From: Holosporales bacterium
Lineage (GTDB): Bacteria > Pseudomonadota > Alphaproteobacteria > JAJTHO01
Length of the DNA stretch: 64,000 bases
Direction of reading: 5' to 3'
Assembly: GCA_046318675.1 (NCBI GenBank)
Contig: JBKCUA010000033.1
Coordinates: 2,858-66,857 of the forward strand
The notes below the pieces were generated by a model, which did no database searches, was not told the DNA's origin, and saw only the letters and a program-made list of their open reading frames with translations. Shown piece after piece: positions 9,819 through 45,937 of the stretch. The position numbers and the translations under genes are program-made. Position 1 is the first letter of the stretch. Each line of letters begins with the position of its first letter.

Positions 9819-10046
9819 GATTGTGCAAAAAACTAACGGCCCTGGGGTTGGGCATCACCTATGAACAGCTCACCTCCGACCTGACAGGCGTCAACTATTA
9901 CAGCATCCAGACAATGCTGAAAAAAGGGGGTCAAAAAATCCGCCCGATCCTGTCTCTCGCTTTTTAAACGCGGCTTACGTACTCTCCGACGATGCTTTGC
10001 TAAAACTCAAAGCCTTCACCCTCTATGGTTCCGCTTAAACTGATGG

Positions 10047-11126
10047 GTGGTAAGTATGTCTTTCTTAATGATAGCAATATCCATTGTCTCTGCCCCTATC
10101 CCATTTTACAATAACGGGGCGATGTCCTCCGTTTTTCTCCCTCCTCTTGCCCTGACCGCCGGTGAACCCGCCGGGATTGCCGCTGAGATTACCGTGCGGG
10201 CGTGGTTGGGGCGTGATCGCTTGCCGGTGCCGTTTTATATTGTTGCGGATGCGGATCATATAAAGGAAACTGCGGCGCGACTGCGGTTAAGCGTGCCCAT
10301 TGCGCGTATTACCGACCCGCATCAGACAACAATGGTCTTTCCCAGCGCTCTACCGGTACTGCACCAGCCGTTGGCCGTCCCTGTGACCCCGGGGGTGCTT
10401 GAACCCGCCAATGCCCCCGCTGTGCTGGCAAGTTTGCAGACGGCCCTCGCGGCGGTGCAGGGCGGCACGGCAAGTGCGCTGGTCACCAATCCGATTCATA
10501 AGGGCACATTGTATGCTGCTGGGTTTTCGTATGATGGGCATACGGAGTATTTGGAGGCGCATACATACACGCCTTTGGCAGTGATGATGCTGGCCTGTCC
10601 ATCGCTGCGGGTGGTGCCATTGACGATTCATAAGTCGTTGCGTCAGGCGATTGAGCACGTTGCGCCGCACCGCATTATTGCCACGGTGCGGGTGATGGTG
10701 TCTGGCCTCCGCGAGTATTGGGGCATCGCTCGGCCCCGGATTGCGGTGGCGGGGCTTAATCCCCATGCCGGGGAGGGAGGTACCATGGGGGATGAAGAAA
10801 TACGGTGTATTGTTCCTGCGCTGGAGGCTTTGCGTGAGGAAGGGATTGATGTGCAGGGACCGTTTGCTGCCGATGGGTTGTTTCATGAGCAGGCGCGGGG
10901 GAGCTATGATGCGGCTTTATGTATGTATCATGATCAGGCGTTGATCCCTATTAAGACGCTGGATTTTTGGGGTGCGGTGAACATTACCTTGGGTCTGCCC
11001 ATTATTCGCACCTCGCCGGATCACGGCACGGCGTTGTCCTTGGCAGCGGTAGGCGGGGCGCGACCCAACAGCTTGCTCGCGGCGTTGACGCTGGCGGGGG
11101 AGCTGGCTCTAAAACGTGTTGGATAA
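10047..11126 (+). CDS. pdxA: 4-hydroxythreonine-4-phosphate dehydrogenase PdxA
   Basis: TAGEPAGIAAE N-terminal motif, NPHAGEGG, HDQALIPIK motifs; likely true start ATG 10122 (MSSVFLPP...). Confidence 0.85.
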   Translation: MVSMSFLMIAISIVSAPIPFYNNGAMSSVFLPPLALTAGEPAGIAAEITVRAWLGRDRLPVPFYIVADADHIKETAARLRLSVPIARITDPHQTTMVFPSALPVLHQPLAVPVTPGVLEPANAPAVLASLQTALAAVQGGTASALVTNPIHKGTLYAAGFSYDGHTEYLEAHTYTPLAVMMLACPSLRVVPLTIHKSLRQAIEHVAPHRIIATVRVMVSGLREYWGIARPRIAVAGLNPHAGEGGTMGDEEIRCIVPALEALREEGIDVQGPFAADGLFHEQARGSYDAALCMYHDQALIPIKTLDFWGAVNITLGLPIIRTSPDHGTALSLAAVGGARPNSLLAALTLAGELALKRVG

Positions 11127-11937
11127 TAGTGCGATTTTGGCGTTGCCGCCGCTGCGGGAGGTTATCGGTGCGGCAAAGCTCTCGGCGGATAAACGTCTGG
11201 GGCAGAATTTCCTCATGGATATCAACCTGACCCGCAAGATTGCCCGGCAGGTAGGGCAGGGTGGTATCATTCTCGAGATTGGCCCTGGGCCTGGCGGCCT
11301 TACTAGAGCCTTGTTGTTGGAGCATTGTGTCCCTGTGGTCGCGGTTGAAAAAGACCCGCGCGCCGTGGCGGCGTTACAGCCGTTGGTGCAGGCTGCCGCC
11401 GGGAGGCTGACGGTCATCGAGGGCGACGCGCTGGAGTTGGACGTGCTTGGTTTTGCGCCGCCGCCGTTGTGGGTGGCGGGAAACCTTCCTTACAATGTGG
11501 GGACAGCGATTGTCCTGCAGCTTTTTCAACAGATACATCGTGTCGCCGGGATGGCACTGATGTTTCAGCGGGAGGTAGCCGAGCGCCTCGCGGCAAAGCC
11601 CAGCACCCCCGCGTACGGCCGGCTTTCGGTGGTGGCGCAGGCTCTATGCCGGGTGGAGAAATGCTTTGATCTGCCCTCCAGTGCCTTTGTGCCGCCCCCA
11701 TCCATTGTCAGCCGGGTGGTGCGCCTCATCCCCCACGCGGATGCAGCGGTGGTGCCGCTGGAGGCGTTGGCAACCCTTACCAAGGCCGCCTTTGGCCAGC
11801 GGCGCAAGATGCTGCGCCGGAGTTTGGAGCCATTGTTGCCGCGCCTGCCGCCGCTGGAGGACGCCTTTTTGCAGCAGCGGGCGGAAGACGTGACGGTGGC
11901 ACAATACGTGGCGTTGGCGCGGAAGCTTATTATTTAA
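11116..11937 (+). CDS. rsmA: 16S rRNA (adenine1518/1519-N6)-dimethyltransferase RsmA/KsgA
   Basis: 273 aa; LGQNFLMD motif, SAM-binding EIGPGPGGLT; follows pdxA as in the conserved pdxA-ksgA pair. Confidence 0.88.
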   Translation: MLDNSAILALPPLREVIGAAKLSADKRLGQNFLMDINLTRKIARQVGQGGIILEIGPGPGGLTRALLLEHCVPVVAVEKDPRAVAALQPLVQAAAGRLTVIEGDALELDVLGFAPPPLWVAGNLPYNVGTAIVLQLFQQIHRVAGMALMFQREVAERLAAKPSTPAYGRLSVVAQALCRVEKCFDLPSSAFVPPPSIVSRVVRLIPHADAAVVPLEALATLTKAAFGQRRKMLRRSLEPLLPRLPPLEDAFLQQRAEDVTVAQYVALARKLII

Positions 11938-13870
11938 ACCCTAAAGCACTGGCGATGCCTTTCACCGCGCCTCCTACGGCATCGGAGCCAGCTTTTGCCG
12001 CCGCCGTTGATCCTGTTGCTCTGGTCGCATTGGCAGCTTGTTCCAGCATTTGTGCCGCCTGTCCGGCGACGTTGGTATCCATCCGGCCGGCATCGCTCGT
12101 GGTTTGCGGGTTGACAAAGGCATCGGCGATCTGACCTGTTGCCTTGATGAGCATATTGCTGGTTATACCAATGAAGATGAGTTGAAGCCAGACATCGGTG
12201 CCAAGGGCGTTTTTGGATGGGGTAGTGTTAATAGCGTCCACCGCGCCACTGGTCAGGCCGATAATGGCCGCCTGTATCACCAGTTCTGTGGAGCTTTGGA
12301 TCATGCCTTTGAGGGCGGTGGTGGTGATAGAACGCAGGCCAGGCAGGACAAACGCGGCAATAATCAGGGGGCTAAGCATAGCCAGCAACAGCCAGCGGAT
12401 AATTACATCGGCGGCCTGGAGCGGGAAAAGCAAATACATCTTACCGAAAAACCATAGTATTGGGGCGGCACTGAGAATCATCATAATCAAACCAACAGGA
12501 CTGGTCCATGATCCATCCCACAAGGTTTGCAGAGCCTGCATCAACACCCCGCCGATGCTGCGCTGCATGGCACCGAGGAGACAGGCAGCCGACTTGGCCA
12601 TGGCTTTTCCATCGGCACTGGCACTGTTGAGGTTGCCGCAGAATTCGGAGACAACGCCGCTCATCCCCGTACCTTCCGAGGCGGTGTTTGTTATTATCCC
12701 GGCGGTTTGCATACCCGAGACGACGATGGGCGCATACACATAATGCCAGAAATTTGCAAAACTGCCCAGGAACAAACCCACAAGGAACACGATGCCCATA
12801 CGGCTGACCACCATGTTGTTGAGGTTGTTCATCTGTGCCATGGGGGTAAAGGGGGTGTAGATGCGGGCGACGTGAAATAAACTCCACACTACGGCAAAAA
12901 TGCCCAGCAGGCCGAGCATGGCATTTTGCAGGGCTTTGAAAACCTTCTGGCCATACGTATCACTAATCTCAAGAAGTTTGGCGATCACCTCGCATCCCAT
13001 GCAAGCCTGGATTAAATCTTCGACGGCTAATGATTTTTTGAGTTTATCTATGCTTTTACCAAGTGCTTTCTGGCTGGCACTTTGGGGGTCGTTCATGCCG
13101 CTGCCGGTGGTGGTGCTGGCTTCGCCCCGCTGTTTGGTCAGATCAAGGGCGCAGGCGGCGACCCCTTGTTTTTTTAAACCGGCCAAGGTGGCGGCATCGC
13201 TTTTGGGAAGTTTTTTGATGTCCTCGCTGCTGAGAGTGTTGTTAATAAGATTATCACACGTGATCATATCCTTACAAAAATGGACGGCGGCGGCACCGAT
13301 AGGATCGCGGGCTTGCAGGAAATCCGTGGGGTTAGTAGCGCAGCCGGGCACCGCAAGGTTGACATAGCTTTCTAAGGCTTGCTGTGCGCTGGATGTTTTA
13401 TCAAAAACAGCTTTGCAGGTGGGATCAACCCGGGCATTGCGAATGGCGAAGGTGAGCTTGCTGGCGCACTCGGCGGCGTTGGCCGGGGTTGATGCCGCGG
13501 GCAACGATTTGGCATCGGCAGAAGCCCCCAATTTTTCAGCAACAACTTTTTTGACATCAGGATCGGGATCGTAGTCCTCAATGACAGGGCCGTATTGTGG
13601 GGTTTTCTGCATACCACCAGTCCCGCACTGATTGGAGCGATAATAAACATTTTTGGCTACGTCTTCAGCTTGGGTACGCAGGAGAGCGGCTTTTTTCGGG
13701 TCTGTACTCTGCAAGGCATTGATTTGAGCATTGATACTTTGCTTGATTTTATTATTACATTGTGTGAGGCCTTGCCCCTCTAACCTCCCCGGTTCGGCCA
13801 GGGCGGGCAGGGCACCCAATAGGATAAAAACAGTTAATAAAACGCGGATCATTAGCTCTTTTTCTCCCAC
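11930..13870 (-). CDS. polytopic membrane protein, VirB6/TrbL-like topology (paralogue A; Cys-rich periplasmic N-domain)
   Basis: 646 aa; signal peptide; roughly 300-aa hydrophilic Cys-rich domain; 6 predicted TM helices; hydrophilic Ala/Gly-rich C-tail; shares CxxC...YGxK.F, FW(H/R)YVY.P.VV and LSP motifs with the two upstream ORFs. Confidence 0.4.
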   Translation of the reverse strand: MGEKELMIRVLLTVFILLGALPALAEPGRLEGQGLTQCNNKIKQSINAQINALQSTDPKKAALLRTQAEDVAKNVYYRSNQCGTGGMQKTPQYGPVIEDYDPDPDVKKVVAEKLGASADAKSLPAASTPANAAECASKLTFAIRNARVDPTCKAVFDKTSSAQQALESYVNLAVPGCATNPTDFLQARDPIGAAAVHFCKDMITCDNLINNTLSSEDIKKLPKSDAATLAGLKKQGVAACALDLTKQRGEASTTTGSGMNDPQSASQKALGKSIDKLKKSLAVEDLIQACMGCEVIAKLLEISDTYGQKVFKALQNAMLGLLGIFAVVWSLFHVARIYTPFTPMAQMNNLNNMVVSRMGIVFLVGLFLGSFANFWHYVYAPIVVSGMQTAGIITNTASEGTGMSGVVSEFCGNLNSASADGKAMAKSAACLLGAMQRSIGGVLMQALQTLWDGSWTSPVGLIMMILSAAPILWFFGKMYLLFPLQAADVIIRWLLLAMLSPLIIAAFVLPGLRSITTTALKGMIQSSTELVIQAAIIGLTSGAVDAINTTPSKNALGTDVWLQLIFIGITSNMLIKATGQIADAFVNPQTTSDAGRMDTNVAGQAAQMLEQAANATRATGSTAAAKAGSDAVGGAVKGIASALGFK

Positions 13871-15189
13871 GGAATATTAAATTTTGGTTGGGGTATGTTG
13901 GGGTTTTTGAGCATCTCGGTGACGGTGGGGATACGTTGGCTGATTTGTGAACGGAGTTTTGTACCAATGGCCGCCGGATCCTGGGCAAAGGGGAGCAGGT
14001 TTTGCAGTTGTTTGCGGGTGCTATTGAAGTTGTTACCGATGCTTTTGCCAAGGCGTTCAAAAATTTGCATGGCAAACATTGGCATACGCATGGTTGCCGG
14101 GACTTGGGTGATCTGGTTACTCCAACCCGAAGTTTGCTTTAAAACGGCACCAGTAGCAATATATAATGCCAACAGACGCCAGTAATCAGGCGATAAAATA
14201 CCGTTCTGTAGGGAAAGCCCGGCAACATTGGTGGCATTACCCATATCCAGAACATTTTTAACAATCACCATAAAGACAGCAATCACCCCGCCGGTGAGCA
14301 TGATGTTAATCCCCGACGCAAACAACACCTTGACGGCCAGCGTCGTAATCTGACGGGAAATGGGAAAGATAAACGATAAGGCCAGTACAGGGCTTAAAAT
14401 CGTTATTATCGTTAAATTAATAAGAATGTCCACCACTCGGGCAATGATGAGGAGCAGCAGCGGTGCGGCCGCCGCAATCAACCCCAGCCCTGCCGTCCAG
14501 CGCAGCAGAGACTGACCCCCGCCGCCAACCGTCGCATCCATGTAGCTGACCGTTTCGTTGCCTTTCCACAGATCGTGGCCGAGCTTGATGCCCATGCCCA
14601 GGACGCGCTGCATGATTTCCACGTTGCAGAGAAATTTCTGGGTGGCGTCGCTGCTGACACTGCCGGGGGAAGAGGCGGGAGGAGTGCAGGTGGTGATTTC
14701 CTTATTGCCAACGTATCGGGCGGCGTTGTTGATATAGGCTTGGCTGACTTTACTGCCGACGCTGACGATCATGTCCTGAATGCGCCAGAACAGTTGATAG
14801 TTTTGCACAAGGCCGATGACAATCATGGTTAAGATAAGCTGTTTCACCAGACCGTTGAGCACCTTGGGGGCTTCCTGTCCGCCAAAGGGGCTGAACAGTT
14901 GCCCCGCCTGAAACAGGAACCAGAGGGCTAAAAAGATGCTCAACGGGGTGGCAATCTGCCCGGCGATGAGTTCAAAGGCGCGCTTGCCGTAATCCTGACG
15001 CACGTCGTCCATAAGCTGGAGCAGGGAACACACCCAGCAGGTGCTGTACCAGTCGTCTTTGGTCGGGATCGTCAGCTTGCCGGAGGGGGAAGAGACGGTG
15101 GCCGAATCACCAGCAGCAGCCGGAGCAGGCGTCTGCGCGGCGGCAGGCACGGCAAAAAACAAGAGTAAAAAGAGGAGGAGCGCGCGCAT
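13852..15189 (-). CDS. polytopic membrane protein, VirB6/TrbL-like topology (paralogue B)
   Basis: 445 aa; signal peptide, CWVCSLL...YGKRAF motif, 5-6 TM helices, hydrophilic C-tail; 19-nt overlap with downstream paralogue, 1-nt overlap with upstream ORF. Confidence 0.4.
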   Translation of the reverse strand: MRALLLFLLLFFAVPAAAQTPAPAAAGDSATVSSPSGKLTIPTKDDWYSTCWVCSLLQLMDDVRQDYGKRAFELIAGQIATPLSIFLALWFLFQAGQLFSPFGGQEAPKVLNGLVKQLILTMIVIGLVQNYQLFWRIQDMIVSVGSKVSQAYINNAARYVGNKEITTCTPPASSPGSVSSDATQKFLCNVEIMQRVLGMGIKLGHDLWKGNETVSYMDATVGGGGQSLLRWTAGLGLIAAAAPLLLLIIARVVDILINLTIITILSPVLALSFIFPISRQITTLAVKVLFASGINIMLTGGVIAVFMVIVKNVLDMGNATNVAGLSLQNGILSPDYWRLLALYIATGAVLKQTSGWSNQITQVPATMRMPMFAMQIFERLGKSIGNNFNSTRKQLQNLLPFAQDPAAIGTKLRSQISQRIPTVTEMLKNPNIPQPKFNIPWEKKS

Positions 15190-18100
15190 TAGTTTATTCC
15201 CATTTTTTCGAGTTTTTCTCGAACACCGTCATTCCATTCTTTTTTGGATTCTTCTTTTTTTGCGGCTCTGGCGGCAATTTCTTCTTCTTTTTTAATAATT
15301 TTGTCAGATGCCTGATCTAAATATCTCCTGGCGAAGGTGTCGTATGTTTTAATGGCAGTCTGGACATCGAGTTTTTCTTGGGTGTAGAGCTCTGCCTGTT
15401 TCTCGTTGAGGCGGAGTATTTCTGCTTTAACCTCCGTTTTTTCCCAGCTTAATTTGCTGATCTCTTTGGCAATCTGCGTCGTCATGTTGGCGGGAAGGCC
15501 AGCGGCCAGCATGGCGGTGTTCTCGCGCAGTTTTTTCTCAATGTCGTTGAGGCGGGCGTCGTTAAGGCGGATGCGGTCGCTAAGTTCTTCGTGTTTTTTG
15601 TTATACTCTTCACGGATATCGTTGCGTTTCAGGTCGCCTTTGCCTTCATAGTCTTTCTGGGCGGTTTGAAGAATAGCTTGTTTTTTATCATGGTATTCGT
15701 TGATGTTGCGTATTTTATCGTCACGCTCGCTCATCATGCGGGTAATTTCTTCTTGCCCACTGCGAAGAATAACCTGCCGCAAGGCGCGAATGTCGCCGAG
15801 TTCTTTGGCAATATCGGCGGCGGGGGTTGTAGTGTCTTTACGCAACACATCCTCGCGTTTTTTGAGATCGGCCAGCTCTTGTTTAACGGTATTTTTCATG
15901 TCCTCGATGTTCTTATCCACGTTGCTTAGTGCCTGGTGCCGCTGGGCTTCGTTAGTCATTTCGGCGTGCTTGAGATCAACCATGCGGGAAAGGTTGCCGG
16001 ACCCTCTATTGGCAAGGGTTGCGCCTATTGTGCCACCCCTAAAAAATCCTTCGGCGACGTTAGAAAGTCCGGTGGCATCGGCCATAGTTGTTACAACTGT
16101 TCTCGGTGCGGCGATAATCACTGCGCCAAGGGTAGTAGCAGTAGTTGTTAAAGCCCATTTTCCGATTTCCATTGGTGCATTTTTTATATCATCAATGATC
16201 CGGTCTCTTGTGCCTTTGGCGATTTCACCCAAAGCATTGGTAACCCGATCTGTTGTATCTTTGATGGGTTGCGGGATGGCATCACCGACTTGACCGCTAA
16301 CGGTAGCGACACGTTCACGAACATCACGCAGCAAATTATCAAAGTCTTTTTTAAGGCTTTGAAAATCTTTGTATGGTTCCCGGGTAAAATTGTTGGTGCT
16401 TAAAAAATTGTTCACCCATTCTAAGAATTTTTCAGGCATTTGCATGGTTCCGGTGACAACATATTGCCGGGCGGCTTCTAGATACTGTAGGCCTGAATAG
16501 AGCGCGTCGGATACTTTACCGATATTGCTTGCAGTGCCAGTGGCGAGCCATTGGGCGTTATGTATGGTGCCATTAACAAGCCAAGCAGCACCGCTTCCAA
16601 CGCCTTGCAGCACATTTAAGGTGACGTTAAGAATTTGGTTGTCAACGCGCATTTTGTCGAGTCCTTGTGTAATGCGTCCCCCTAAATCATTCAGGCCATT
16701 GAGTGCATTTTGGCTTAATCTTCCGAGATCATTAAGTCTATCACCCATATACCCCCCCACCGCTCCCCCCACCGCCCCGGCACCGTCTTTGAGTGCATCC
16801 ATCCCTTTTGCCACCAGCTCATTGTTGGCGAGGGCGTTCAACGCGCCTTTGCCGGCAAAGCCGCCAAGGAACCCGGCTACCCCCGCGCCGGCATTCACGA
16901 AAGGAGTGAAGGCAGCACCCATTCCCCCTAACGCCCCGCCAAATGCGCCGAAAAGAGTATCCGTTGTTGTCCTTGCTAAGACGAGGCCTTGTTTAGCTAT
17001 CCAAGGGCCAAAAATCAGCAGCCACGTCGCCGCCATGGCAAAGGTGAGGATGGGCTGTCCAGATTGGCTGCTGCCCTGACCTGAAGCAATCGTGGCGTTG
17101 GGCACGGGTTGGCCGTTGAGGTAGGGGATAGGATCAACAGGATTTCCGCTATAGGGGTTGCTTTCGTCACCACCAAGGCGTAGTTCAAAATGCAGGTGAG
17201 GTCCGGTGGAACCACCCGTGTTGCCAACGTGGGCAATAATCATGCTGACATCCACCTGCTGGCCTTTAGTAACAAAAATTTTATCAAGATGCGCGTAAGC
17301 GGTATTATATCCACCATCGGGGTGATGAATGACGACGAGGTTCCCATACCCCCCTGTACCATTATCATCGGCTTTAATGACAACCCCCGGGGCGGCCGGT
17401 GTAACAGGTGCTCCGATAGGACAGGCGAAATCCACCCCTGCATGTAATTTCATTATACCTTTTATAGGATGCTTTCGCATACCATAACGACTACCTTTAC
17501 CGCCTATGGAGCAAGTACCACCTTGAGTAACTAATTTTATGGGATAGCGCAAACTGCCGTTAAAGGAGGGGGTGCTGCCGCCTTGGGTGGGATCAACGCT
17601 GGTGGTGCTAGCTAGGGGATCGTGGCGGACGTAGCTGCTCAGGGTTTTTGTGGTCGTGGCTGGTGGTGCTGTGGGCGTGTTGCCCTGCATCGCTCCTTGC
17701 ACTGCCGTTGCCGCTGTGCTGGCCGCCCCGGCGACGGCACTGCCTGCTTTGTTCATGCCGGCCTGGACGGTTTTGACGGCTTCTTGAATCACCCCGGCGG
17801 AGAGGACGGCGACAACTGAGACAACGGATAGGGTTAATCCTGCCTCCAGCAACCCTTTAAATCCCGTGTTGGCGTAGTTGCGGGTGGCGGGAAAACAGTA
17901 ACAGCCGATCAGCGCCGGGGACAGGCATGAAATGATCACCCAGCGCATCAGGGCATCAAGGATCATCACCGCAAAGGTTATCGGCGGGGTTATGCTGACA
18001 ACAAACACAATCACGCCGATAAGGAGGTTGTTGGCATTGGCACCAGTTTGGGTGATCATGTACCATCCGGTGGCAATGCCATAGCTGAAGGCGTTTTGAA

Positions 18101-18803
18101 AGCTGTGTACCATGCATTCGAGGCGGTATTGCAGTGAGCGTTCCTCTTCGCTTAGGCCACTGATGACGGTTTTGCTGCACTTATTGCCGTCTTTGAGGGT
18201 GAAGGTATCAACGGTGTATTGGCCGTTTTGCCCTTTGGTGCCCTCGGTCAGCAGGGCGTTGGACATATTAATAGAGATATTGACCACGGGCTTGTAAATA
18301 TACCGCCAATACAAATCATACGACGTCGGAGCCAAAAGAATAATCGAGACGGTGAGCACCAGTGCGCCCTTGGTGAACAGGGTGCTGGCAATGGCGTTGG
18401 TGCGGTTGGCCGGAGCAAAGGGGAGCAGCATTTTGGCCACCTGCACCAACGTCCACAGAACAAAGGCCACGCTCAAGAATGTTGCCACGCCCGATCCGAA
18501 CATGGGCAGCAGTATTTTGCCGTACTGCATGGAGGCGGCGAACAGGCGGCTGATAATACCGCAGGAAAGACATACTCCCGAAAACCAGTTCATGGTGTCG
18601 GTAATGGCGGCAGAGGAGGAGGTCGCAGAGGATGTGCTCTTGGCGGCGGGGGGTGTTGCGGTTGGGGGTGTCGTCGTTGTGGTAGCTGTCGCCGCCGGTG
18701 GAGTACTGCCCGTCGCCATAGCGGGAGACACCCCGCAAACCAGCAGACCAAGCCCCAAAAGGAGCACACCAAAAAAACCAGAACGGGTAAAATACCTCGG
18801 CAA
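15189..18803 (-). CDS. VirB6/TrbL-like membrane domain fused to M23 (LytM) peptidase domain, Gly-rich segment and long C-terminal coiled coil
   Basis: 1204 aa, TTG start with AGGGG SD; N-terminal signal peptide + Thr/Pro-rich stretch + TM bundle homologous to paralogues A/B (VCLSCGI...YGKILLP); M23 motifs HAGVD and HLHFE (about 17110-17470); Gly-rich repeats; last roughly 260 aa heptad-rich charged coiled coil. Confidence 0.55.
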   Translation of the reverse strand: MPRYFTRSGFFGVLLLGLGLLVCGVSPAMATGSTPPAATATTTTTPPTATPPAAKSTSSATSSSAAITDTMNWFSGVCLSCGIISRLFAASMQYGKILLPMFGSGVATFLSVAFVLWTLVQVAKMLLPFAPANRTNAIASTLFTKGALVLTVSIILLAPTSYDLYWRYIYKPVVNISINMSNALLTEGTKGQNGQYTVDTFTLKDGNKCSKTVISGLSEEERSLQYRLECMVHSFQNAFSYGIATGWYMITQTGANANNLLIGVIVFVVSITPPITFAVMILDALMRWVIISCLSPALIGCYCFPATRNYANTGFKGLLEAGLTLSVVSVVAVLSAGVIQEAVKTVQAGMNKAGSAVAGAASTAATAVQGAMQGNTPTAPPATTTKTLSSYVRHDPLASTTSVDPTQGGSTPSFNGSLRYPIKLVTQGGTCSIGGKGSRYGMRKHPIKGIMKLHAGVDFACPIGAPVTPAAPGVVIKADDNGTGGYGNLVVIHHPDGGYNTAYAHLDKIFVTKGQQVDVSMIIAHVGNTGGSTGPHLHFELRLGGDESNPYSGNPVDPIPYLNGQPVPNATIASGQGSSQSGQPILTFAMAATWLLIFGPWIAKQGLVLARTTTDTLFGAFGGALGGMGAAFTPFVNAGAGVAGFLGGFAGKGALNALANNELVAKGMDALKDGAGAVGGAVGGYMGDRLNDLGRLSQNALNGLNDLGGRITQGLDKMRVDNQILNVTLNVLQGVGSGAAWLVNGTIHNAQWLATGTASNIGKVSDALYSGLQYLEAARQYVVTGTMQMPEKFLEWVNNFLSTNNFTREPYKDFQSLKKDFDNLLRDVRERVATVSGQVGDAIPQPIKDTTDRVTNALGEIAKGTRDRIIDDIKNAPMEIGKWALTTTATTLGAVIIAAPRTVVTTMADATGLSNVAEGFFRGGTIGATLANRGSGNLSRMVDLKHAEMTNEAQRHQALSNVDKNIEDMKNTVKQELADLKKREDVLRKDTTTPAADIAKELGDIRALRQVILRSGQEEITRMMSERDDKIRNINEYHDKKQAILQTAQKDYEGKGDLKRNDIREEYNKKHEELSDRIRLNDARLNDIEKKLRENTAMLAAGLPANMTTQIAKEISKLSWEKTEVKAEILRLNEKQAELYTQEKLDVQTAIKTYDTFARRYLDQASDKIIKKEEEIAARAAKKEESKKEWNDGVREKLEKMGIN

Positions 18804-18879
18804 CCAAAACCCCTGCTGTTTACACTTTATTAATATCTAGCAGGGAATTTAGAATAATGCATCAAAAAAGTGATAAGAA

Positions 18880-19731
18880 TCACTTTTTCTGGGTGATCTT
18901 TTTGTCGAGAAAGGTTAGAAGTCTTTTGCAGGCGTGCTCAAGGGTTGTGATCACTTGGCGCAGGCGGAAAAAATCATAGCCATGCACCACGGCCCAAAAT
19001 GCGCCCACCAGCCATAGAATAATAAGCAGTACAGCCGTCAGAGCATATTGATTGGGAATGGTATAAGCACCATAGTACGCTCGACTCAGCGCGTTCCAGT
19101 ACCGATCATCAAAAATATTGAATCCTTTTAAAAAAGCATAGGCACAGAAAAAAGCGGTCAGCAGCCAAACCCCCGTCCACGCGGCCACGCCCAAAAAGCT
19201 ATGAATTACAAACGTGATGGGTTTGCCCACCCGCCGCCACACTGGCGCGAGCAGGCGCGCCAAAAGCTTGAGGATAGTATGCAGCGGATGGCGGGACGGC
19301 GCGGGATCGGGACGTTGGGACAGCGGCGGCGGCACTATCGGCGCAAAAGGGGGCGGCGGCGGAGGTGGTGTCGGTGTTGGGGGGGGCGGAGGAGGCGGAG
19401 GCGCGCTGGGTTTTACCTCTGTTTTAACATCGCTTTTAGGAGCCACTTCCTTTTCCAGGCGGCGTTTTTCCAAAAAGCGCGCCAGTTGCGCCGAGGGGGA
19501 ATCGTCGTCGTTTTCTTTTGTTTCCGGCTCTTTTTCTTCTGGTTTTTTGGGTGCGGCTTTGGGGGCTGGCGGCGGGGGAGGCGGAGTTGGCTCAGGCTTT
19601 TTAGCTTGTTTTTTTTGCTCTTTTTGTTGTCCTGCGGCCTCACGTTTTTCGAGGCGTTGCTTTTCCATGCTGGCGCGCAGACGTTTGGCCAGGGGCGATT
19701 CGTCGTCAGGGGCTGGGGTGTCGTCGGCCAC
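18880..19731 (-). CDS. proline-rich membrane protein with internal duplication (hypothetical)
   Basis: 283 aa, GTG start 22 nt after lpxB stop; two repeats of [S-P-x-A-x-R-L/F...EKR.LEK...polyPro]; two C-terminal TM helices. Confidence 0.45.
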   Translation of the reverse strand: MADDTPAPDDESPLAKRLRASMEKQRLEKREAAGQQKEQKKQAKKPEPTPPPPPPAPKAAPKKPEEKEPETKENDDDSPSAQLARFLEKRRLEKEVAPKSDVKTEVKPSAPPPPPPPPTPTPPPPPPPFAPIVPPPLSQRPDPAPSRHPLHTILKLLARLLAPVWRRVGKPITFVIHSFLGVAAWTGVWLLTAFFCAYAFLKGFNIFDDRYWNALSRAYYGAYTIPNQYALTAVLLIILWLVGAFWAVVHGYDFFRLRQVITTLEHACKRLLTFLDKKITQKK

Positions 19732-19753
19732 GGGTTATCTTACCGCCGTGATT

Positions 19754-20896
19754 CTAATGCACAAGGCTTAGCAAAACCTTAGCGGCGGCGTGCCCGGCGC
19801 TGGGGCTGCCTGCAGGGGGGCGCAATTTGGCCAACGCCGGGGTAACGGCGGCAGAGAACGCCTTTTTATGGCCAAACGTCTGGGTTACGGCCTCGGCCAG
19901 GGCTTGCGGCGTGGCGGCGTCTTGCAAATATTCCGGGATAACAGCCTTGTTCTCCAAAATATTAACAAGAGAGGCAAAACGAATGGTAATCAGGCGTTTG
20001 GCAATTTGGTGGGTGAGGGGATGAACGCGGTAAGCGACCACGTGGGGCGTGCCGGCGGCGGCGAGTTCCACGCTGACCGTGCCGGAGGCGGCGAGGGCAA
20101 CATCGGCCGCACGGTACAGCGGCACCCGGTAGTGACTATCCGTTACAATCCTTACGGCAAGCCGGGACTTCCTTACGATGGCGTGGACTGTGTCGGCAAG
20201 AAACGGCACGGTCATCAGGGCAAGCTGGGTATCGGGGTGGTGCTGCTGCACGCGCCGGGCGGCGTTAAGAAATAGGGGCAACAGGCGGGTTACTTCCCCC
20301 CGGCGGCTACCGGGCAGGAGCAGCAGTAAAGGCTTTTCCTTGTTTATTGCACAATCGGAATAAATATTTTTTTGTTCTGCTGTTGCATTGTAGCGTTCGA
20401 GAATAGGATGACCCACAAAGGTGCTGGCCAGGCCGTGCTTTTCAAAAAGAGGCGGCTCAAAAGGCAGCAAACAGAGCAGGTGATCATAAATCGCCGCCAT
20501 GGTCGCCGCCCGGCCCGGCTTCCACGCCCACACCGACGGCGCGACGAGATGCACCAGCTTCCCGTGCCATTTTCCCTGCTCCCTGGCGACATGGAGACGG
20601 CGCGCCAGCCGGGCATTAAACCCTGGCGCATCAATGGTGCAAACGATATTGGGTTGCGCCTCTAGCACAGCGGCTACCGTCTCTTTCAGGCGTCGAAACA
20701 GCCGTGGTAAGCGCGGCAGCACTTCGACCAACCCCATGACCGCCAGATCGTGGAGAGGAAAGAGGGATGCTAGCCCCGCCGCTTGCATCTCTTCCCCCCC
20801 GATGCCTGAAACGGCGGTGCCCGGCGGCAGGGCCTTGATGACCGCCGCGCCCAAGGCATCGCCGGAGGGTTCGCCCGCACTGAAAAAAATCTTCAT
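19754..20896 (-). CDS. lpxB: lipid-A-disaccharide synthase
   Basis: 380 aa; MKIFFSAGEPSGDALGA N-terminus and GT-B fold characteristic of LpxB; position after lpxI. Confidence 0.85.
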   Translation of the reverse strand: MKIFFSAGEPSGDALGAAVIKALPPGTAVSGIGGEEMQAAGLASLFPLHDLAVMGLVEVLPRLPRLFRRLKETVAAVLEAQPNIVCTIDAPGFNARLARRLHVAREQGKWHGKLVHLVAPSVWAWKPGRAATMAAIYDHLLCLLPFEPPLFEKHGLASTFVGHPILERYNATAEQKNIYSDCAINKEKPLLLLLPGSRRGEVTRLLPLFLNAARRVQQHHPDTQLALMTVPFLADTVHAIVRKSRLAVRIVTDSHYRVPLYRAADVALAASGTVSVELAAAGTPHVVAYRVHPLTHQIAKRLITIRFASLVNILENKAVIPEYLQDAATPQALAEAVTQTFGHKKAFSAAVTPALAKLRPPAGSPSAGHAAAKVLLSLVH

Positions 20897-21717
20897 GAGC
20901 TAGGCACCCCGCAGAGAAATAGCCCTGCTGCATCGGCGGCGGCAATGGCTTCTTCTTGTTGCAGCAGTAAGGTTTCCCCGGCACCGCCAGCAATCCCGGC
21001 AAAACCAGCGGCGGCGGCTTTGTGCATCGTATCAAGACCCAAGGCCGGCATATCCGCCCGGCGTTCCTGACCGGGTTTGGCGGTCTTGATGAGAATCATT
21101 TGGCCTTGGTAATCAAAGCCCGCCGCCCGTTCCAGCAGCGCATCGGTGCCGCCGATGTCTTCTACTGCCAGCACACGGCCTTCCGCCACCACCACCGCTT
21201 GGCCGAGATCGAGGGGGGCTAGCTGGTGCAGGGCGGCAAGACCCACAGCGATGCTGTCCCGTTCGGCGTTGGTGGGGTGACGCCGGGTCAGGCAGCGTTG
21301 AGGCAGTAACACCCCGCCCAGAATCTCGTGGGCACCCACCACGCCAAAGCCTTCTTCTTCTAAGAAACGGATGACCGCTTTCAGTAGGCCGTCGTCGCCC
21401 CGGCTGATGCCCATGCGAGCCAGCAGGCGCAGCCCTGCCGCATCCGGCGCAAGCTGGAGCAACGGCGGGCGGCGTATCTGCCCGGCCAGGACAATGTGGG
21501 TGACCCCGGCGGCCTTGAACGCGGCCAAACTAGCCCCGACGGCCCCCAACCGGCCAATGTGGTGGGGCCGCCCGGTAAGCAGGGCTGGATCGGTTTGCTC
21601 GCTAAACCCTAGGATGTAATATGGTATGTTATGTGATTCAAAGTAGTGTATCAGCAAGACAGGCAACGCGCCGCGCCCGGCGATGAGGCCATACACCCTA
21701 GGCGGCATCGCTGGCAA
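20893..21717 (-). CDS. lpxI: UDP-2,3-diacylglucosamine diphosphatase LpxI (DUF1009)
   Basis: 274 aa between lpxA and lpxB as in alphaproteobacterial lipid A clusters; N-terminal GLIAGRGALP motif. Confidence 0.6.
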   Translation of the reverse strand: MPAMPPRVYGLIAGRGALPVLLIHYFESHNIPYYILGFSEQTDPALLTGRPHHIGRLGAVGASLAAFKAAGVTHIVLAGQIRRPPLLQLAPDAAGLRLLARMGISRGDDGLLKAVIRFLEEEGFGVVGAHEILGGVLLPQRCLTRRHPTNAERDSIAVGLAALHQLAPLDLGQAVVVAEGRVLAVEDIGGTDALLERAAGFDYQGQMILIKTAKPGQERRADMPALGLDTMHKAAAAGFAGIAGGAGETLLLQQEEAIAAADAAGLFLCGVPSS

Positions 21718-22516
21718 AGCTGGTGCTGGTGGCGGGGCGACAGAGCTGGCGGCTGCCCCTTGTGTTGAGGAAGGCGACTAAGTCTTGCACGGCGGTGCTG
21801 GGATTATTGCGTAATTTTTCCAAGGCTTCGGCCACGGTGGTGGTGTCGTTAAACAGGCCCTGCAAGGCGTGGCGCAGGGCGTGGATATCGTCCCTTGCAA
21901 AGCCGCGACGTTTGAGGCCGACGATGTTAAGACCCGCGAGGTGCGCCCGCTCGCCCATGACGGTGGCAAAGGGCAGGACATCATGCTCCACCCCGGAAAG
22001 GCCGCCGATCATGGCGTGTTTGCCAATACGGACAAATTGATGAACGGCGGCAAGGCCGCCAATAATGGCATGCTCACCCACTTCAACGTGGCCGGCGAGG
22101 GTGGCGTTGTTGGCCATAATAACGTTATCACTGACGATGCAATCGTGGGCAACGTGTACCCCGACCATGAGTAGGCAGTGATTACCAACTTTCGTCACCA
22201 ACCCCCCGCCAGCGGTTCCGGCATGGACGGTGGCGTGCTCACGAATGGTGGTGTGGTGGCCGATTTCAACACGGGAAGGCTCGCCTTTGTATTTTAAATC
22301 TTGGGGCACGAGGCCGATAGTGGCAAAGGGAAAAACCGTGCTGTGGGCAGCGATGCTGGTGGTGCCGCTGATAACTGCGTGGGAATGAATCGTGACGTGA
22401 TCGCCGAGGGTGATATTCCCCTCAAGAACGCTGTATGCACCAACGTGGACATCTTGGCCTAGAACAACGTCCTTGCCAATAATAGCGGTAGGGTGGATTA
22501 GGGGTGTGTCAGACAT
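21698..22516 (-). CDS. lpxA: acyl-ACP--UDP-GlcNAc O-acyltransferase
   Basis: 272 aa; left-handed beta-helix hexapeptide repeats, IHPTAIIG start, LpxA C-terminal helical domain. Confidence 0.88.
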   Translation of the reverse strand: MSDTPLIHPTAIIGKDVVLGQDVHVGAYSVLEGNITLGDHVTIHSHAVISGTTSIAAHSTVFPFATIGLVPQDLKYKGEPSRVEIGHHTTIREHATVHAGTAGGGLVTKVGNHCLLMVGVHVAHDCIVSDNVIMANNATLAGHVEVGEHAIIGGLAAVHQFVRIGKHAMIGGLSGVEHDVLPFATVMGERAHLAGLNIVGLKRRGFARDDIHALRHALQGLFNDTTTVAEALEKLRNNPSTAVQDLVAFLNTRGSRQLCRPATSTSFASDAA

Positions 22517-22997
22517 CCATGATCATCGCGGTAAAGATGGCTTCCGCGCAGACTTTCCCGTCCACGATAGCTTCGCCTGCAAAACGAAAGACATTGCGGC
22601 GGCCATGTTGTTTGGTGACGTGCAGTTGAATTTGATCCCCGGGGGAGACAGGCTTGCGGAATTTGGCCTCATCAATACCCATGAAATAGACAAGTTTCCC
22701 CTGCGCCTTGGTGCCAAGGGAATGGACGACAACAATCCCGGCGGTTTGGGCGAGAGCCTCAACGATAAGCACGCCGGGCATGACGGGACGTTCGGGGAAA
22801 TGCCCGGTGAAGAAATGCTCATTAATCGAGACATTTTTAAAGCCGATGGCGCGTTCGCCGACGCTGAGGATGCGAATACGCTCCAGCAACAGCATAGGGT
22901 AACGGTGGGGAATCATGGCCATGATGCCGTTGACGTCAATCTCAATAGGGGGAATCGTCAGGGCATCAGTGCCGATAGTCAGGGTGTTGTCAGTCAT
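22509..22997 (-). CDS. fabZ: 3-hydroxyacyl-ACP dehydratase FabZ
   Basis: 162 aa; hotdog fold motifs [27 protein letters not shown]. Confidence 0.9.
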
Positions 22998-24022
22998 TCC
23001 GTTGCTGTTCCTTTGCCAGCTGCTGCCCGTTTGAGGTAGGCAACCTGGCGAAAAAATTCCTTAAGGGGTTGAGCGGGGCTTCCCCCAACGCCGCCGCCGG
23101 GGGGAATGTCCCGCATGACGCCGCTGGAGGCAGCGATGCGGGCACCGTTACCAACTTTTATATGCCCGGTCAACCCGGACTGGCCGCCGATTTGGACATA
23201 TTGGCCGATTTCCGTGCTACCGGAGATACCGACTTGAGCCACCACAATAGACCCCCGGCCAATGCGAACGTTGTGGGCGATTTGCACGAGGTTATCGATC
23301 ATCACCCCGTCTTCAATGATGGTATCAGGGCCTGCGCCGCGATCGACGGTGGTGTTCGCGCCGATTTCCACGTCGTTGCCGATGATGACCCGGCCCAGCT
23401 GCGGCACTTTTACCGGGCGTTCTGGGTCAAAGGCAAAGCCGAAGCCCGGCTGGCCGATGCGGGCGCCGGGGTAGATGACGGTGCGATGGCCAATGTGGGC
23501 GTACTCAATGCTGGCGTGGGTACCAACAGTGCACTCATCGCCGAGGGTTACCCCGTCGCCCAGCACGGCATGGGGGTTGAGGCGACAGCTGCTCCCTATC
23601 TGTACGTTCTTGCCAATAACTACCCCGGCGGCGATGTGGCAGTTGGCGCCGATGCTGGCGGTGGGATCAATAATGGCGGTGGGGTGAATAAAGGCCGTTG
23701 CTGCTGGTGCGGGGTAGAAGTATTGCGCGATGCGGGCATAGGCCTTGTAAGGGTTGGGGACAACAAGGGCGACGGTGCCGGCGGGGCACAGGGGGGCTAA
23801 CGCCGCGGTCACCAAACACGCGCCGGCTTTGGTGGTGGTAAAGGCGTCTTTGTACTTGGGGTTGTCAAAAAAGCTGATGTCGCGTGCCGTTGCCGTGTGC
23901 AGCGGCGCCACGTCGTGGATCAGGCGATCCGCTGCTTCGGTGGGGAGGGGTGCGCCCACCAACGCTGCCAGCGTCGCCAGCGGGGCAGGGATCGGAGTGG
24001 TAAAAAAACGCGCATCGGCCAT
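22994..24022 (-). CDS. lpxD: UDP-3-O-acylglucosamine N-acyltransferase
   Basis: hexapeptide-repeat LpxD; six-frame ORF extends to 24118 but MADARFFT... (24022) matches LpxD N-termini. Confidence 0.85.
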
Positions 24023-44506: not shown

Positions 44507-44513
44507 GACCACC

Positions 44514-45095: not shown

Positions 45096-45104
45096 TGTTG
45101 TGCT

Positions 45105-45929: not shown

Positions 45930-45937
45930 GATACCCT

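What the first reader, a model, noticed from the sequence alone, without database searches (positions are those of the whole stretch)
15189..18803. 1204-aa chimeric protein: VirB6-like membrane core + catalytically intact M23 peptidoglycan peptidase + Gly-rich segment + roughly 260-aa coiled coil
Seen: the M23/LytM signature is complete. HAGVD is at about 17430-17460 and HLHFE at about 17195-17215, with the usual Gly-rich beta-core between them. This domain sits after the VirB6-like TM bundle and an S/T/P-rich linker. It is followed by a TM helix, a Gly-rich repeat region (GAFGGALGGMGAAF...GGFAGKGA...GGAVGGYMG), another hydrophobic segment, and a heptad-rich highly charged C-terminus (KNIEDMKNTVKQELADLKKREDVLRKD...) over roughly 15189-15980. 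Established: M23 domains cleave peptidoglycan cross-links. T4SSs normally recruit a separate lytic transglycosylase (VirB1). Extended VirB6 proteins (F-plasmid TraG, RvhB6) carry C-terminal effector or contact domains. Inference: a VirB6-type channel subunit carrying its own cell-wall hydrolase would be a built-in PG-remodelling function. The alternative is a phage tape-measure-like lysin. Tape-measure proteins also combine M23 domains, Gly-rich stretches, TM segments and coiled coils.
Basis: partly seen in the sequence, partly recalled or inferred. Interest (0 to 1): 0.8.

Follow-up and report, generated by a model that had tools for sequence, protein, structure and literature searches.

The report
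VirB6-like membrane protein carrying cell-wall hydrolase
A 1204-residue inner-membrane protein of an uncultured Holosporales-like alphaproteobacterium has the fold of the type IV secretion subunit VirB6 with an intact M23 cell-wall peptidase inserted in a loop that probably faces the periplasm; this combination was not found in the literature searched, and it may give a first functional handle on the poorly understood 'extended VirB6' proteins.

Summary

- The M23 domain is inserted inside the VirB6-like module, between helix 7 and a conserved eighth hydrophobic helix, rather than following it.
- The gene is the first of three tandem VirB6-like paralogs (1204, 445, 646 aa).
- The cluster is chromosomal and syntenic, lying between lpxB and ksgA.
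- No other T4SS gene and no phage gene lies in the 64-kb window.
- The tape-measure alternative is rejected.

Relatives show the hydrolase is an exchangeable module:
- A strain about 97% identical in the flanks carries a probable NlpC/P60 domain at the same place.
- Distant members carry M23 before the module, M23 split around it, or a YkuD domain.
- This argues for a hydrolase tethered on the same side as both ends of the module.

Most likely function: a VirB6-type periplasmic assembly with its own wall-cutting enzyme, a VirB1 analogue. Whether it serves a T4SS encoded elsewhere or works alone is unresolved. I rate it a new variant of a known kind, interest about 0.6.

The parts
15189..18803 (-). 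Whole ORF, 1204 aa, TTG start: extended VirB6-like protein with an embedded M23 peptidase
   Evidence: ORF. Pfam M23 and TrbL both above their gathering scores. The TTG start and N-terminus are shared with relatives.
18714..18803 (-). Sec-type signal peptide, aa 1-30 (n-region R3/R7, hydrophobic core FFGVLLLGLGLLVCGV, AMA-TG cleavage motif)
   Evidence: Hydropathy peak at aa 10-28. The motif is read directly from the sequence. Cleavage is inferred.
18600..18713 (-). S/T/P/A-rich flexible linker, aa 31-68
   Evidence: 68% S/T/P. pLDDT below 50.
17769..18599 (-). VirB6-like module, helices 1-7 (aa 69-345), with CxxC at aa 78-81 and conserved Cys209/Cys230
17514..17768 (-). Ala/Ser/Thr/Pro-rich linker, aa 346-430, start of the insertion
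   Evidence: Composition. Low pLDDT. Absent from the paralogs at this point of the family HMM.
17109..17513 (-). M23/LytM metallopeptidase domain, aa 431-565. HxxxD (H454, D458) at 17430-17444. HxH (H536, H538) at 17184-17198.
   Evidence: Pfam 101.7 bits. NCBIfam ShyA/MepM-type matches. PDB Csd1 1.9e-25 with motifs aligned. Foldseek ShyA, Csd1, DipM and LytM. Motif coordinates.
16995..17051 (-). Eighth hydrophobic helix of the module (aa 585-603), followed by K604/R610. Probable membrane re-entry toward the cytoplasm.
   Evidence: Hydropathy. It aligns to family HMM positions 380-398, which are contiguous with helix 7 in the 445-aa and 646-aa paralogs. Orientation is inferred from the positive-inside rule.
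16734..16994 (-). Gly/Ala-rich segment with small-xxx-small motifs, aa 604-690. Partly conserved in the family.
   Evidence: 25% Gly and motif positions. It aligns to HMM positions 399-457, which are also present in the 646-aa paralog tail.
16065..16733 (-). Helical middle region, aa 691-913, low-confidence model. Includes a second strain-variable cassette (16028-16734).
   Evidence: AF2 helices with pLDDT below 50. It does not align to L007 although the flanks are about 97% identical, and part of it matches L002 at 87%.
15192..16064 (-). Highly charged long-helix C-terminal region, aa 914-1204
   Evidence: 38.5% D/E/K/R. AF2 predicts four long helices, pLDDT up to 93. No PDB or Pfam match. 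Found only in the close relatives.
17051..17677 (-). Hydrolase cassette as delimited by comparison with the nearest strain (aa about 376-584)
   Evidence: blastn of window against L007 gives 97.2% identity up to 17678 and 96.5% from 17050 downward, with no alignment between. L007 encodes a probable NlpC/P60 domain there.
13852..15189 (-). Second VirB6-like paralog, 445 aa. Its start abuts the stop of the 1204-aa gene.
   Evidence: Pfam TrbL 29.4 bits against a cut-off of 25.9. BLASTP to the 1204-aa protein E=4e-10. Family HMM 4.8e-88.
11930..13870 (-). Third VirB6-like paralog, 646 aa: Cys-rich exported N-terminal half plus a VirB6-like module. Overlaps the 445-aa gene by 19 nt.
   Evidence: BLASTP to the 1204-aa protein E=1e-22. 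Family HMM 4.1e-89. Sequence.
18880..19731 (-). Conserved 283-aa partner: acidic and Pro-rich N-terminus with C-terminal hydrophobic helices. No known family.
   Evidence: No Pfam, NCBIfam or PHROG match. Present directly upstream in all Holosporales-like relatives.

Best explanation
The gene encodes an 'extended VirB6' inner-membrane protein whose periplasm-facing part carries its own peptidoglycan endopeptidase.

Shown:
- The protein has a Sec-type signal sequence.
- It has a module with the VirB6 (TrwI) fold. By analogy with R388 TrwI, helices 1 and 2 are the membrane anchors and helices 3-7 form the periplasmic stalk base.
- A flexible Ala/Ser/Thr/Pro linker and an M23 domain with all metal and catalytic residues are inserted between helix 7 and a conserved eighth hydrophobic helix.
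- A lineage-specific, roughly 600-residue helical and charged tail follows.
- It is the first of three tandem VirB6-like paralogs in a syntenic chromosomal cluster.

Inferred:
- The paralogs assemble into a TrwI-like oligomer rising from the inner membrane.
- The tethered hydrolase cuts peptide cross-links in the nearby sacculus, so the structure can pass or be anchored. This is the job that VirB1 lytic transglycosylases do for Gram-negative T4SSs and that membrane-anchored LytM/CHAP/SLT proteins such as PrgK do for Gram-positive ones.
- The eighth helix returns the chain to the cytoplasm, where the charged tail would sit.

Why the activity is what matters: relatives carry M23, a probable NlpC/P60 domain or a YkuD domain. 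They carry it before, after or split around the module. So selection appears to act on a wall-acting enzyme tethered to this module, not on a fixed geometry.

Open: whether the assembly belongs to a T4SS whose other genes are elsewhere in the genome.
For: Domain identity:
- Pfam M23 and TrbL are both above threshold.
- M23 motifs align to Csd1, NMB0315 and ShyA.
- The AF2 module model has pLDDT 88.5.
- TrwI/VirB6 takes the top five places of 350,542 chains in Foldseek.
- The helix pattern matches the published description of seven long helices, with a1, a2 and a5-a7 hydrophobic and only a1 and a2 in the membrane (PMC9259494).

Insertion:
- Family HMM positions flanking the M23 domain are contiguous in both paralogs.

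Paralogs and synteny:
- Paralogy is shown.
- Synteny is conserved in seven related loci.

Exchangeable hydrolase:
- The nearest strain is about 97% identical in the flanks but has a probable NlpC/P60 domain in place of M23.
- M23 lies before the module in P0016 and P0157, and is split around it in P0003, P0005 and P0020.
- P0063 has a YkuD/Tlde1 domain.
- More distant members P0025-P0029 also carry M23 after the module.

Periplasmic placement (supporting, not proof):
- The signal peptide, the near-invariant CxxC and the conserved Cys pair fit an exported location.

T4SS link:
- One distant lineage has VirB11-like and VirB10-like genes about 7 kb from its VirB6-like array.
- Reviews state that T4SS hydrolases of Gram-positive systems are membrane-anchored and can contain LytM and CHAP domains, and that the roles of extended VirB6 domains are unknown (PMC12857230).
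Against: - No VirB4, VirB8-11 or VirD4 gene is in the 64-kb window.
- None is within +/-10 kb in 8 of the 9 lineages sampled.
- Direct sequence comparison with TrwI fails: hhalign probability 1.1%, and there is no PDB sequence hit.
- Structural scores are moderate: Foldseek E=0.015-0.07, TM 0.43/0.50.
- Enzyme activity, oligomeric state and topology are all predicted, not measured.
- The classical 5-TM, N-out/C-in VirB6 topology, applied naively to the hydropathy peaks, would put the M23 domain in the cytoplasm.
- The split-M23 allele cannot be shown to be functional. The two available copies are nearly identical, and the N-half shows 5 non-synonymous against 2 synonymous changes.
Confidence: 0.55

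Rival explanations
1. A T4SS-independent envelope device. The tandem VirB6-like paralogs form a stand-alone inner-membrane and periplasmic assembly with its own wall hydrolase. It would act, for example, in local wall remodelling, envelope tethering or export of some other cargo, and would have been recruited away from type IV secretion.
For: - Arrays of 2-5 paralogs sit among housekeeping genes in the window and in L001-L011, L013 and L014, with no T4SS ATPase or core gene nearby.
- In the window lineage the cluster is co-directional with, and 22 nt downstream of, the lipid A operon lpxD-fabZ-lpxA-lpxI-lpxB. Synteny is conserved down to 35% protein identity.
- The family is large and comes almost entirely from unnamed alphaproteobacterial MAGs: 868 cluster representatives at E<=1e-3.
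Against: - Only +/-10 kb was visible around each relative. Rickettsiales scatter their T4SS genes over several islands and also keep VirB6 genes in tandem arrays (PMC2653234).
- L016 does have VirB10-like and VirB11-like genes nearby.
- No function of a VirB6-fold protein outside T4SSs was found in the papers read here.
Confidence: 0.28
2. An antibacterial, polymorphic effector. The hydrolase cassette is a toxin that attacks the wall of competitor cells, and is swapped between strains as in polymorphic toxin systems.
For: - The cassette is exchanged between strains that are about 97% identical in the flanks.
- The alternative domains (M23, probable NlpC/P60, YkuD/Tlde1-like) are the kinds used by wall-targeting effectors.
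- A second variable cassette and a mosaic pattern among alleles suggest diversifying recombination.
Against: - The hydrolase lies in the middle of the protein, between hydrophobic helices of a conserved membrane module, not at a releasable C-terminus.
- No candidate immunity gene co-varies. Apart from the two variable cassettes inside the ORF itself, the window from 10000 to 24071 aligns to L007 at 96.5-97.7% identity.
- The hydrolase type and the middle-region variant assort independently.
- No delivery apparatus is visible nearby.
Confidence: 0.1
3. A phage tail tape-measure-like lysin or prophage remnant.
For: Some PHROG tape-measure families match (phrog_10030 at 1.6e-21, phrog_4070, phrog_23188). 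One Foldseek hit is a cyanophage pre-ejectosome protein.
Against: - All PHROG matches cover only aa about 359-586, mostly 430-586, which is the M23 domain and its adjoining linker. The three neighbours have none.
- The cyanophage hit has TM scores of 0.09 and 0.12.
- The flanks are lpx, ksgA, pdxA and dnaA, with no phage genes.
- Synteny is vertical across relatives.
- The rest of the protein has the VirB6 fold.
Confidence: 0.02

Closest known systems
VirB6/TrbL family, structurally TrwI of plasmid R388 (PDB 7o3v, 8rt9)
   Same: - The Pfam TrbL match is above threshold.
- TrwI is the top structural match by two methods.
- Both have long helices with a1, a2 and a5-a7 hydrophobic (PMC9259494).
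   Different: - No detectable pairwise sequence similarity to TrwI.
- About 3.5 times longer.
- Carries an enzyme inserted before the last hydrophobic helix.
- Not next to VirB2-5 or VirB7-11 genes.
- Has a family-wide CxxC motif and a Cys pair. I did not check whether TrwI shares these.
Extended VirB6 proteins of Rickettsiales (RvhB6a-e; Anaplasma and Ehrlichia VirB6-1 to -4)
   Same: - Several VirB6 genes in tandem.
- Sizes of 670-1150 aa or more.
- The TrbL domain is flanked by large, highly variable regions of unknown function.
- Alphaproteobacterial hosts (PMC2653234; PMC12857230).
   Different: - Rickettsial arrays follow rvhB3-rvhB4 and belong to a documented T4SS. Here no such genes are adjacent.
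- No peptidoglycan hydrolase domain is described for RvhB6 in the papers I read.
- Relatives are labelled Holosporales, not Rickettsiales.
- Direct homology to RvhB6 sequences was not tested.
T4SS-associated peptidoglycan hydrolases: VirB1 (SLT) in Gram-negatives; PrgK, TraG(pIP501) and CwlT in Gram-positives
   Same: - The proposed role is the same: local opening of the wall for an envelope-spanning machine.
- Gram-positive examples are membrane-anchored and combine LytM, SLT and CHAP (NlpC/P60-like) domains (PMC12857230). These are the domain types seen in this family's cassettes.
   Different: - Those proteins are separate subunits with one membrane anchor, not VirB6 fusions.
- VirB1 is a lytic transglycosylase, not a peptidase.
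- This organism is diderm, as its lpx and lpt genes show.
Housekeeping M23 DD-endopeptidases (ShyA/MepM, Csd1, NMB0315, DipM)
   Same: These are the closest sequence and structure relatives of the catalytic domain. The HxxxD and HxH motifs are conserved.
   Different: - All NCBIfam matches are far below the equivalog cut-offs, for example 79 bits against 700 for ShyA.
- Those enzymes are soluble or lipid-anchored periplasmic proteins with LysM or coiled-coil partners, not insertions in a polytopic VirB6-fold protein.

Membership tests
TrbL/VirB6 (PF04610) | Match to the family profile above the curated threshold | tested here: met
   44.5 bits against a cut-off of 25.9, E=2e-11, aa 149-360. 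The 445-aa paralog scores 29.4 bits. Of 38 further long family members, 21 also match.
TrbL/VirB6 (PF04610) | VirB6 fold as in the solved TrwI structure | tested here: met
TrbL/VirB6 (PF04610) | Direct sequence similarity to a structurally characterised VirB6 | tested here: not met
   hhalign of the module alignment against TrwI gives probability 1.1%. A profile search of PDB sequences finds no VirB6.
TrbL/VirB6 as a T4SS subunit | Encoded with the other T4SS components (VirB4 and so on) | tested here: not met
   None in the 64-kb window. None within +/-10 kb of eight related lineages. Only L016 has VirB10-like and VirB11-like genes nearby. The rest of the genome could not be searched.
TrbL/VirB6 as a T4SS subunit | Pentameric stalk base binding VirB5 and VirB2 | not testable with these tools
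   No multimer prediction was available. No VirB5 or VirB2 homologue was identified.
Peptidase M23 (PF01551) | Profile match above threshold and M23 fold | tested here: met
   101.7 bits against a cut-off of 28.7. Foldseek finds ShyA, Csd1, DipM, LytM and lysostaphin at E=1e-10 to 1e-7. Domain pLDDT is 75-92.
Peptidase M23 (PF01551) | Intact HxxxD and HxH zinc and catalytic motifs (as opposed to degenerate LytM activators such as EnvC and NlpD) | tested here: met
   H454, D458, H536 and H538 are present and align with those of Csd1 and NMB0315.
Peptidase M23 (PF01551) | Peptidoglycan endopeptidase activity | not testable with these tools
   Needs zymography or muropeptide analysis.
Rickettsiales rvh-type RvhB6 | Multicopy tandem extended VirB6 genes downstream of rvhB3-rvhB4, in Rickettsiales | tested here: inconclusive
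   Tandem multicopy and extended flanks are met. Adjacency to virB3 and virB4 is not met. Relatives are named Holosporales. No RvhB6 sequence was available for direct comparison.
Phage tail tape-measure protein | Similarity to tape-measure families outside a lysin domain, and tail genes adjacent | tested here: not met
   PHROG matches are confined to the M23 region and its adjoining linker. The neighbours have no PHROG match. The flanks are housekeeping genes.
Polymorphic toxin / interbacterial effector | Variable toxin domain at a releasable end, with an adjacent co-varying immunity gene | tested here: not met
   Variability is met. However, the domain is internal to a membrane module. Outside the two cassettes within the ORF, the window from 10000 to 24071 aligns to L007 at 96.5-97.7% identity, so no neighbouring gene co-varies with the cassette.

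The most novel reading that the evidence does not exclude
The tandem VirB6-like arrays are widespread in uncultured alphaproteobacteria and often carry M23, probable NlpC/P60 or YkuD wall-acting domains. They may be a previously unrecognised envelope machine that works without the rest of a type IV secretion system: a VirB6-fold periplasmic tower that cuts its own way through the sacculus. On this reading the window protein would be its hydrolase-bearing subunit.
Probability: 0.25. Interest if true: 0.8.

Novelty: new variant of a known kind. Interest (0 to 1): 0.6.

Why it matters
A 2025 review states that the contribution of the extra domains of extended VirB6 proteins 'is not yet known' (PMC12857230). 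Here one such domain has a recognisable, assayable enzyme activity, which makes that question testable.

The placement of the hydrolase works as a natural topology reporter. In different family members it lies before the module, after helix 7, or split around the module. A single M23 fold split around the module requires both ends of helices 1-7 to lie on the same side of the membrane. Because the N-terminal half follows a signal peptide, that side should be the periplasm. This agrees with the R388 cryo-EM picture (two membrane helices, the rest periplasmic) and not with the older five-pass, C-terminus-in model.

The work also uncovers a sizeable family: 868 cluster representatives, usually in tandem arrays of 2-5 genes, in poorly known Holosporales-like and other alphaproteobacterial MAGs. 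At least 12 cluster representatives carry fused wall-acting domains. If these arrays turn out to be independent of T4SSs, they would be a new use of the VirB6 fold. If they are T4SS parts, they show a Gram-negative system replacing VirB1 with a subunit-tethered peptidase.

Tried and rejected
- The word-indexed protein search with a profile of the VirB6 modules returned only 2 proteins. The C-terminal 600 aa returned only 1. The exhaustive HMMER search was needed to see the family.
- A profile search of PDB sequences with the module and hhalign against the single TrwI sequence gave nothing. Homology rests on Pfam and on fold.
- Foldseek with the full-length model returned only M23 hits. This made a second, module-only model necessary.
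- The AFDB50 library was unavailable.
- The first structure job failed because the protein exceeds 1200 aa. The signal peptide was trimmed for the rerun.
- tblastn of the module against plasmids gave one marginal, uninformative hit.
- dN/dS on the split-M23 allele was uninformative. L002 and L006 are identical over the module and the C-half.
- The promoter and terminator scan gave terminator-like sites at chance level (20 found against 18.5 expected). The operon structure therefore stays inferred from spacing only.
- The weak NCBIfam hit of the 646-aa paralog to a Mycoplasma pilin-like conjugal protein (E=0.023) falls on helix 1 of the module. I dismissed it as hydrophobic-helix similarity.
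- The Perilipin and ApoLp-III hits are below threshold and reflect amphipathic helices.
- The 283-aa upstream protein has no counterpart outside the Holosporales-like group. The similarly sized first genes of L015 and L016 are unrelated.
- Literature searches for VirB6 with M23 or LytM found no report of such a fusion. Searches for T4SS descriptions in Holosporales found nothing useful.


Full report
**1. The observation**

The ORF 15189..18803 on the minus strand is real: 1204 aa with a TTG start that its relatives share.
- Pfam finds Peptidase_M23 at aa 453-550 (E=2.6e-29, 101.7 bits, cut-off 28.7).
- Pfam finds TrbL/VirB6 at aa 149-360 (E=2e-11, 44.5 bits, cut-off 25.9).
- HAGVD is at 17430-17444 and HLHFE at 17184-17198.
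- Both motifs align with the zinc and catalytic residues of solved M23 enzymes: Csd1 at 1.9e-25, NMB0315 and ShyA.
- The linker, the hydrophobic helix after the M23 domain, the Gly-rich segment and the charged helical C-terminus are all present.
- The only caveat concerns the 'coiled coil'. AF2 predicts four long helices, but a global heptad signal is not significant (466 of 2000 shuffles reach it).

**2. Is the membrane part really VirB6-like?**

Sequence evidence alone is moderate.
- Pfam matches are above threshold in this protein, in the next gene and in many relatives.
- There is no direct similarity to the solved TrwI.

I therefore collected the family with an exhaustive HMMER search. 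It found 868 cluster representatives at E<=1e-3 and 50 at E<=1e-30. I used 129 of these sequences to model aa 60-375.
- The model is confident: pLDDT 88.5, pTM 0.79.
- Foldseek against 350,542 PDB chains returns TrwI/VirB6 of R388 as ranks 1-5. The best is 7o3v_F with TM 0.43/0.50 over 261 columns.
- The helix pattern fits the published TrwI description: two hydrophobic helices, two amphipathic ones, then hydrophobic ones (PMC9259494).

I accept the VirB6 fold.

**3. Anatomy, refined**

Mapping a family HMM onto the three window paralogs shows where the M23 domain sits.
- HMM positions 330-356 (helix 7) and 380-415 (an eighth hydrophobic helix) are almost contiguous in the 445-aa and 646-aa proteins.
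- In the 1204-aa protein they are separated by about 240 residues.
- So the linker plus M23 domain (aa about 344-586) is an insertion inside the conserved module, not an appendage after it.
- Part of the Gly-rich stretch is also a family feature.

The order along the protein is:
- a signal peptide with an AMA/TG motif;
- an S/T/P linker;
- a short helix, then CxxC at the start of the long helix 1;
- helices 1-2, with a short Arg-containing loop between them;
- helices 3-7, with a conserved Cys pair;
- the linker, the M23 domain and a second linker;
- helix 8, followed by Lys and Arg;
- the Gly-rich segment;
- a variable helical middle region;
- the charged long helices.

The most coherent topology puts the N-terminus, helices 3-7 and the M23 domain in the periplasm, and the tail in the cytoplasm. 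This is inferred from the signal peptide, the conserved cysteines, the positive-inside rule and the TrwI structure.

**4. Surroundings**

The two downstream genes are VirB6-like paralogs.
- The 445-aa protein matches at E=4e-10.
- The 646-aa protein matches at E=1e-22 and has a Cys-rich exported N-terminal half.
- Stops and starts abut or overlap.

A 283-aa Pro-rich membrane protein of no known family lies upstream. The whole cluster follows lpxD-fabZ-lpxA-lpxI-lpxB on the same strand, and ksgA and pdxA converge on it.

The rest of the window is housekeeping: dnaA, lptFG, lptD, surA, guaA, uvrD, hrcA, gshB, pyrH, frr, a che operon and sulfate assimilation genes. There are no phage genes and no other T4SS genes.

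**5. Relatives**

Only seven full-length close relatives exist in 5.8 billion clusters. Where they are named, the name is Holosporales MAG. Only two of 185,579 GTDB species genomes carry a relative.

Synteny is conserved in all of them, including one at 35% identity in which paralogs 2 and 3 are fused.

The hydrolase differs among alleles.
- Intact M23: the window, P0001, P0004 and P0007.
- A different domain at the same place: P0002 and P0006.
  - NCBI calls it a C40 peptidase.
  - Pfam NlpC/P60 scores 20.7 and 21.3 bits, just under the cut-off of 23.
  - The PDB match to 7cfl is 5e-4.
  - The Cys and His motifs are recognisable.
- M23 split around the module: P0003, P0005 and P0020.
  - Residues 8-66 of the domain lie before the VirB6-like module and residues 71-134 after it.

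The strain with the C40 cassette (L007) compares with the window as follows.
- It is 97.2-97.7% identical in DNA across 10000-16027 and 17678-24071.
- It is 96.5% identical across 16735-17050.
- It does not align at 17051-17677 (the hydrolase cassette) or at 16028-16734 (a second cassette, aa about 690-925).

The hydrolase type and the middle-region variant assort independently among alleles, so the gene is a recombination mosaic.

**6. The wider family**
- More distant members P0025-P0029 also carry M23 after the module.
- P0016 and P0157 carry it before the module.
- P0063 has an N-terminal YkuD/Tlde1-like domain.
- P0088 has an M23 domain after the module and a DnaJ domain near its C-terminus.
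- Every sampled locus has 2-5 tandem VirB6-like genes.
- Five further lineages sit among housekeeping genes with no T4SS component within 10 kb.
- One lineage (L016) has a VirB11-like ATPase (T2SSE, 77 bits) and a TrbI/VirB10-domain protein about 7 kb from its four-gene array.
- Names attached to family members are only 'Alphaproteobacteria', 'Pseudomonadota' or 'Holosporales bacterium'.

**7. Mechanism**

Shown: a VirB6-fold module with an intact M23 domain inserted in a loop that, by several independent arguments, should face the periplasm. It has two paralogs alongside and is vertically inherited.

Inferred: the paralogs form a TrwI-like oligomer. The tethered endopeptidase cleaves cross-links locally, so that the periplasmic structure can traverse or be fixed in the sacculus.
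- This is the role of VirB1 in Gram-negative T4SSs.
- It is also the role of membrane-anchored LytM, CHAP and SLT proteins in Gram-positive ones (PMC12857230).
- Interchangeable enzyme types and positions argue that a tethered wall-acting enzyme, rather than a particular fold or geometry, is what is maintained.

The main uncertainty is whether a T4SS exists elsewhere in these genomes.
- Rickettsiales provide a precedent for scattered T4SS genes and for tandem, extended and variable VirB6 genes (PMC2653234).
- However, their arrays follow virB3-virB4, which is not the case here.

**8. Rivals**
- A T4SS-independent machine is a serious alternative (about 0.28).
- An interbacterial effector reading is suggested by the cassette swapping. 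It is weakened by the internal position of the domain and by the absence of any co-varying immunity gene (about 0.1).
- The tape-measure reading is rejected. PHROG hits are confined to the M23 region and its adjoining linker, there are no phage neighbours, and the rest of the protein has the VirB6 fold.

**9. Novelty and score**

I found no report of a VirB6-hydrolase fusion in the searchable literature. That literature is incomplete. NCBI and JGI merely label these proteins 'DD-metalloendopeptidase family' or MepM/NlpD.

Both components and the general idea of T4SS-associated wall hydrolases are known, so I file this as a new variant of a known kind.

It is interesting for three reasons:
- it gives a testable function to an extended VirB6 domain;
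- it provides comparative evidence on VirB6 topology;
- it exposes a sizeable, unstudied family of chromosomal VirB6-like arrays.

It is limited because everything functional is inferred and the organisms are uncultured. Interest 0.6.

Noticed in passing
window 17051-17677 versus L007 10180-10777: The nearest strain is about 97% identical in DNA on both sides. It carries a probable NlpC/P60 (C40) domain exactly where the window has M23, so a wall-hydrolase cassette has been swapped inside an otherwise conserved gene.
   Followed up: yes
L002 9752-13459 (P0003), L006 2143-5871 (P0005), P0020: In these alleles the M23 domain is split. Its N-terminal half, with HxxxD, lies between the signal peptide and the VirB6-like module. 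Its C-terminal half, with HxH, lies after the module. The break falls at the same domain position in both halves. Whether the halves reassemble is untested, and the two full copies are too similar for a selection test.
   Followed up: partly
window 16028-16734 (aa about 690-925): A second segment of the gene does not align to the nearest strain but matches a more distant allele (L002) at 87%. The gene is a recombination mosaic with at least two independently assorting variable cassettes.
   Followed up: partly
window 18880-19731 (-): A 283-aa protein with an acidic, Pro-rich N-terminus and C-terminal hydrophobic helices lies directly upstream in every Holosporales-like relative. It has no family match and no counterpart in more distant lineages. 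It sits only 22 nt downstream of lpxB on the same strand.
   Followed up: partly
L016 1838-10200 and 16801-20200; L015 2097-11399: Distant family members form arrays of four or five VirB6-like genes ending in an M23-first fusion, followed by an HTH regulator and unknown genes. In L016 a VirB11-like ATPase and a 1535-aa TrbI/VirB10-domain protein lie about 7 kb away. This is the only T4SS link seen in any locus.
   Followed up: partly
P0063 (L010 10001-14152); P0088: Other members of the VirB6-like family carry different fused domains. P0063 has an N-terminal YkuD/Tlde1-like L,D-transpeptidase domain. P0088 has a DnaJ domain near its C-terminus.
   Followed up: no
window 18561-18572 (aa 78-81) and family-wide: A CxxC motif just before helix 1 is nearly invariant across 129 family members, and two further cysteines in the helix 3-4 region are conserved. 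This suggests disulfides or metal binding on the exported side. I did not check whether canonical VirB6 proteins share it.
   Followed up: partly
L003 7061-9595: In the most distant syntenic relative, the second and third paralogs are fused into one 844-aa protein with two complete VirB6-like modules.
   Followed up: yes
window 39459-41141 (-): A 560-aa HerA-like DUF87 ATPase has a weak match to the T4SS coupling-protein P-loop region (TrwB_AAD_bind, 28.4 bits over about 50 residues). It is probably an unrelated HerA/FtsK-superfamily protein, but it is the only ATPase of that superfamily in the window.
   Followed up: no
window 42382-51736 (-): A complete chemotaxis operon (MCP, CheB, CheD, CheR, CheW, CheA, CheY, PAS-MCP) is present. 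Glutathione, sulfate-assimilation and lipid A/LPS transport genes lie elsewhere in the window, and GC is about 50%. The organism does not look like a strongly reduced endosymbiont despite the Holosporales label of its relatives.
   Followed up: no
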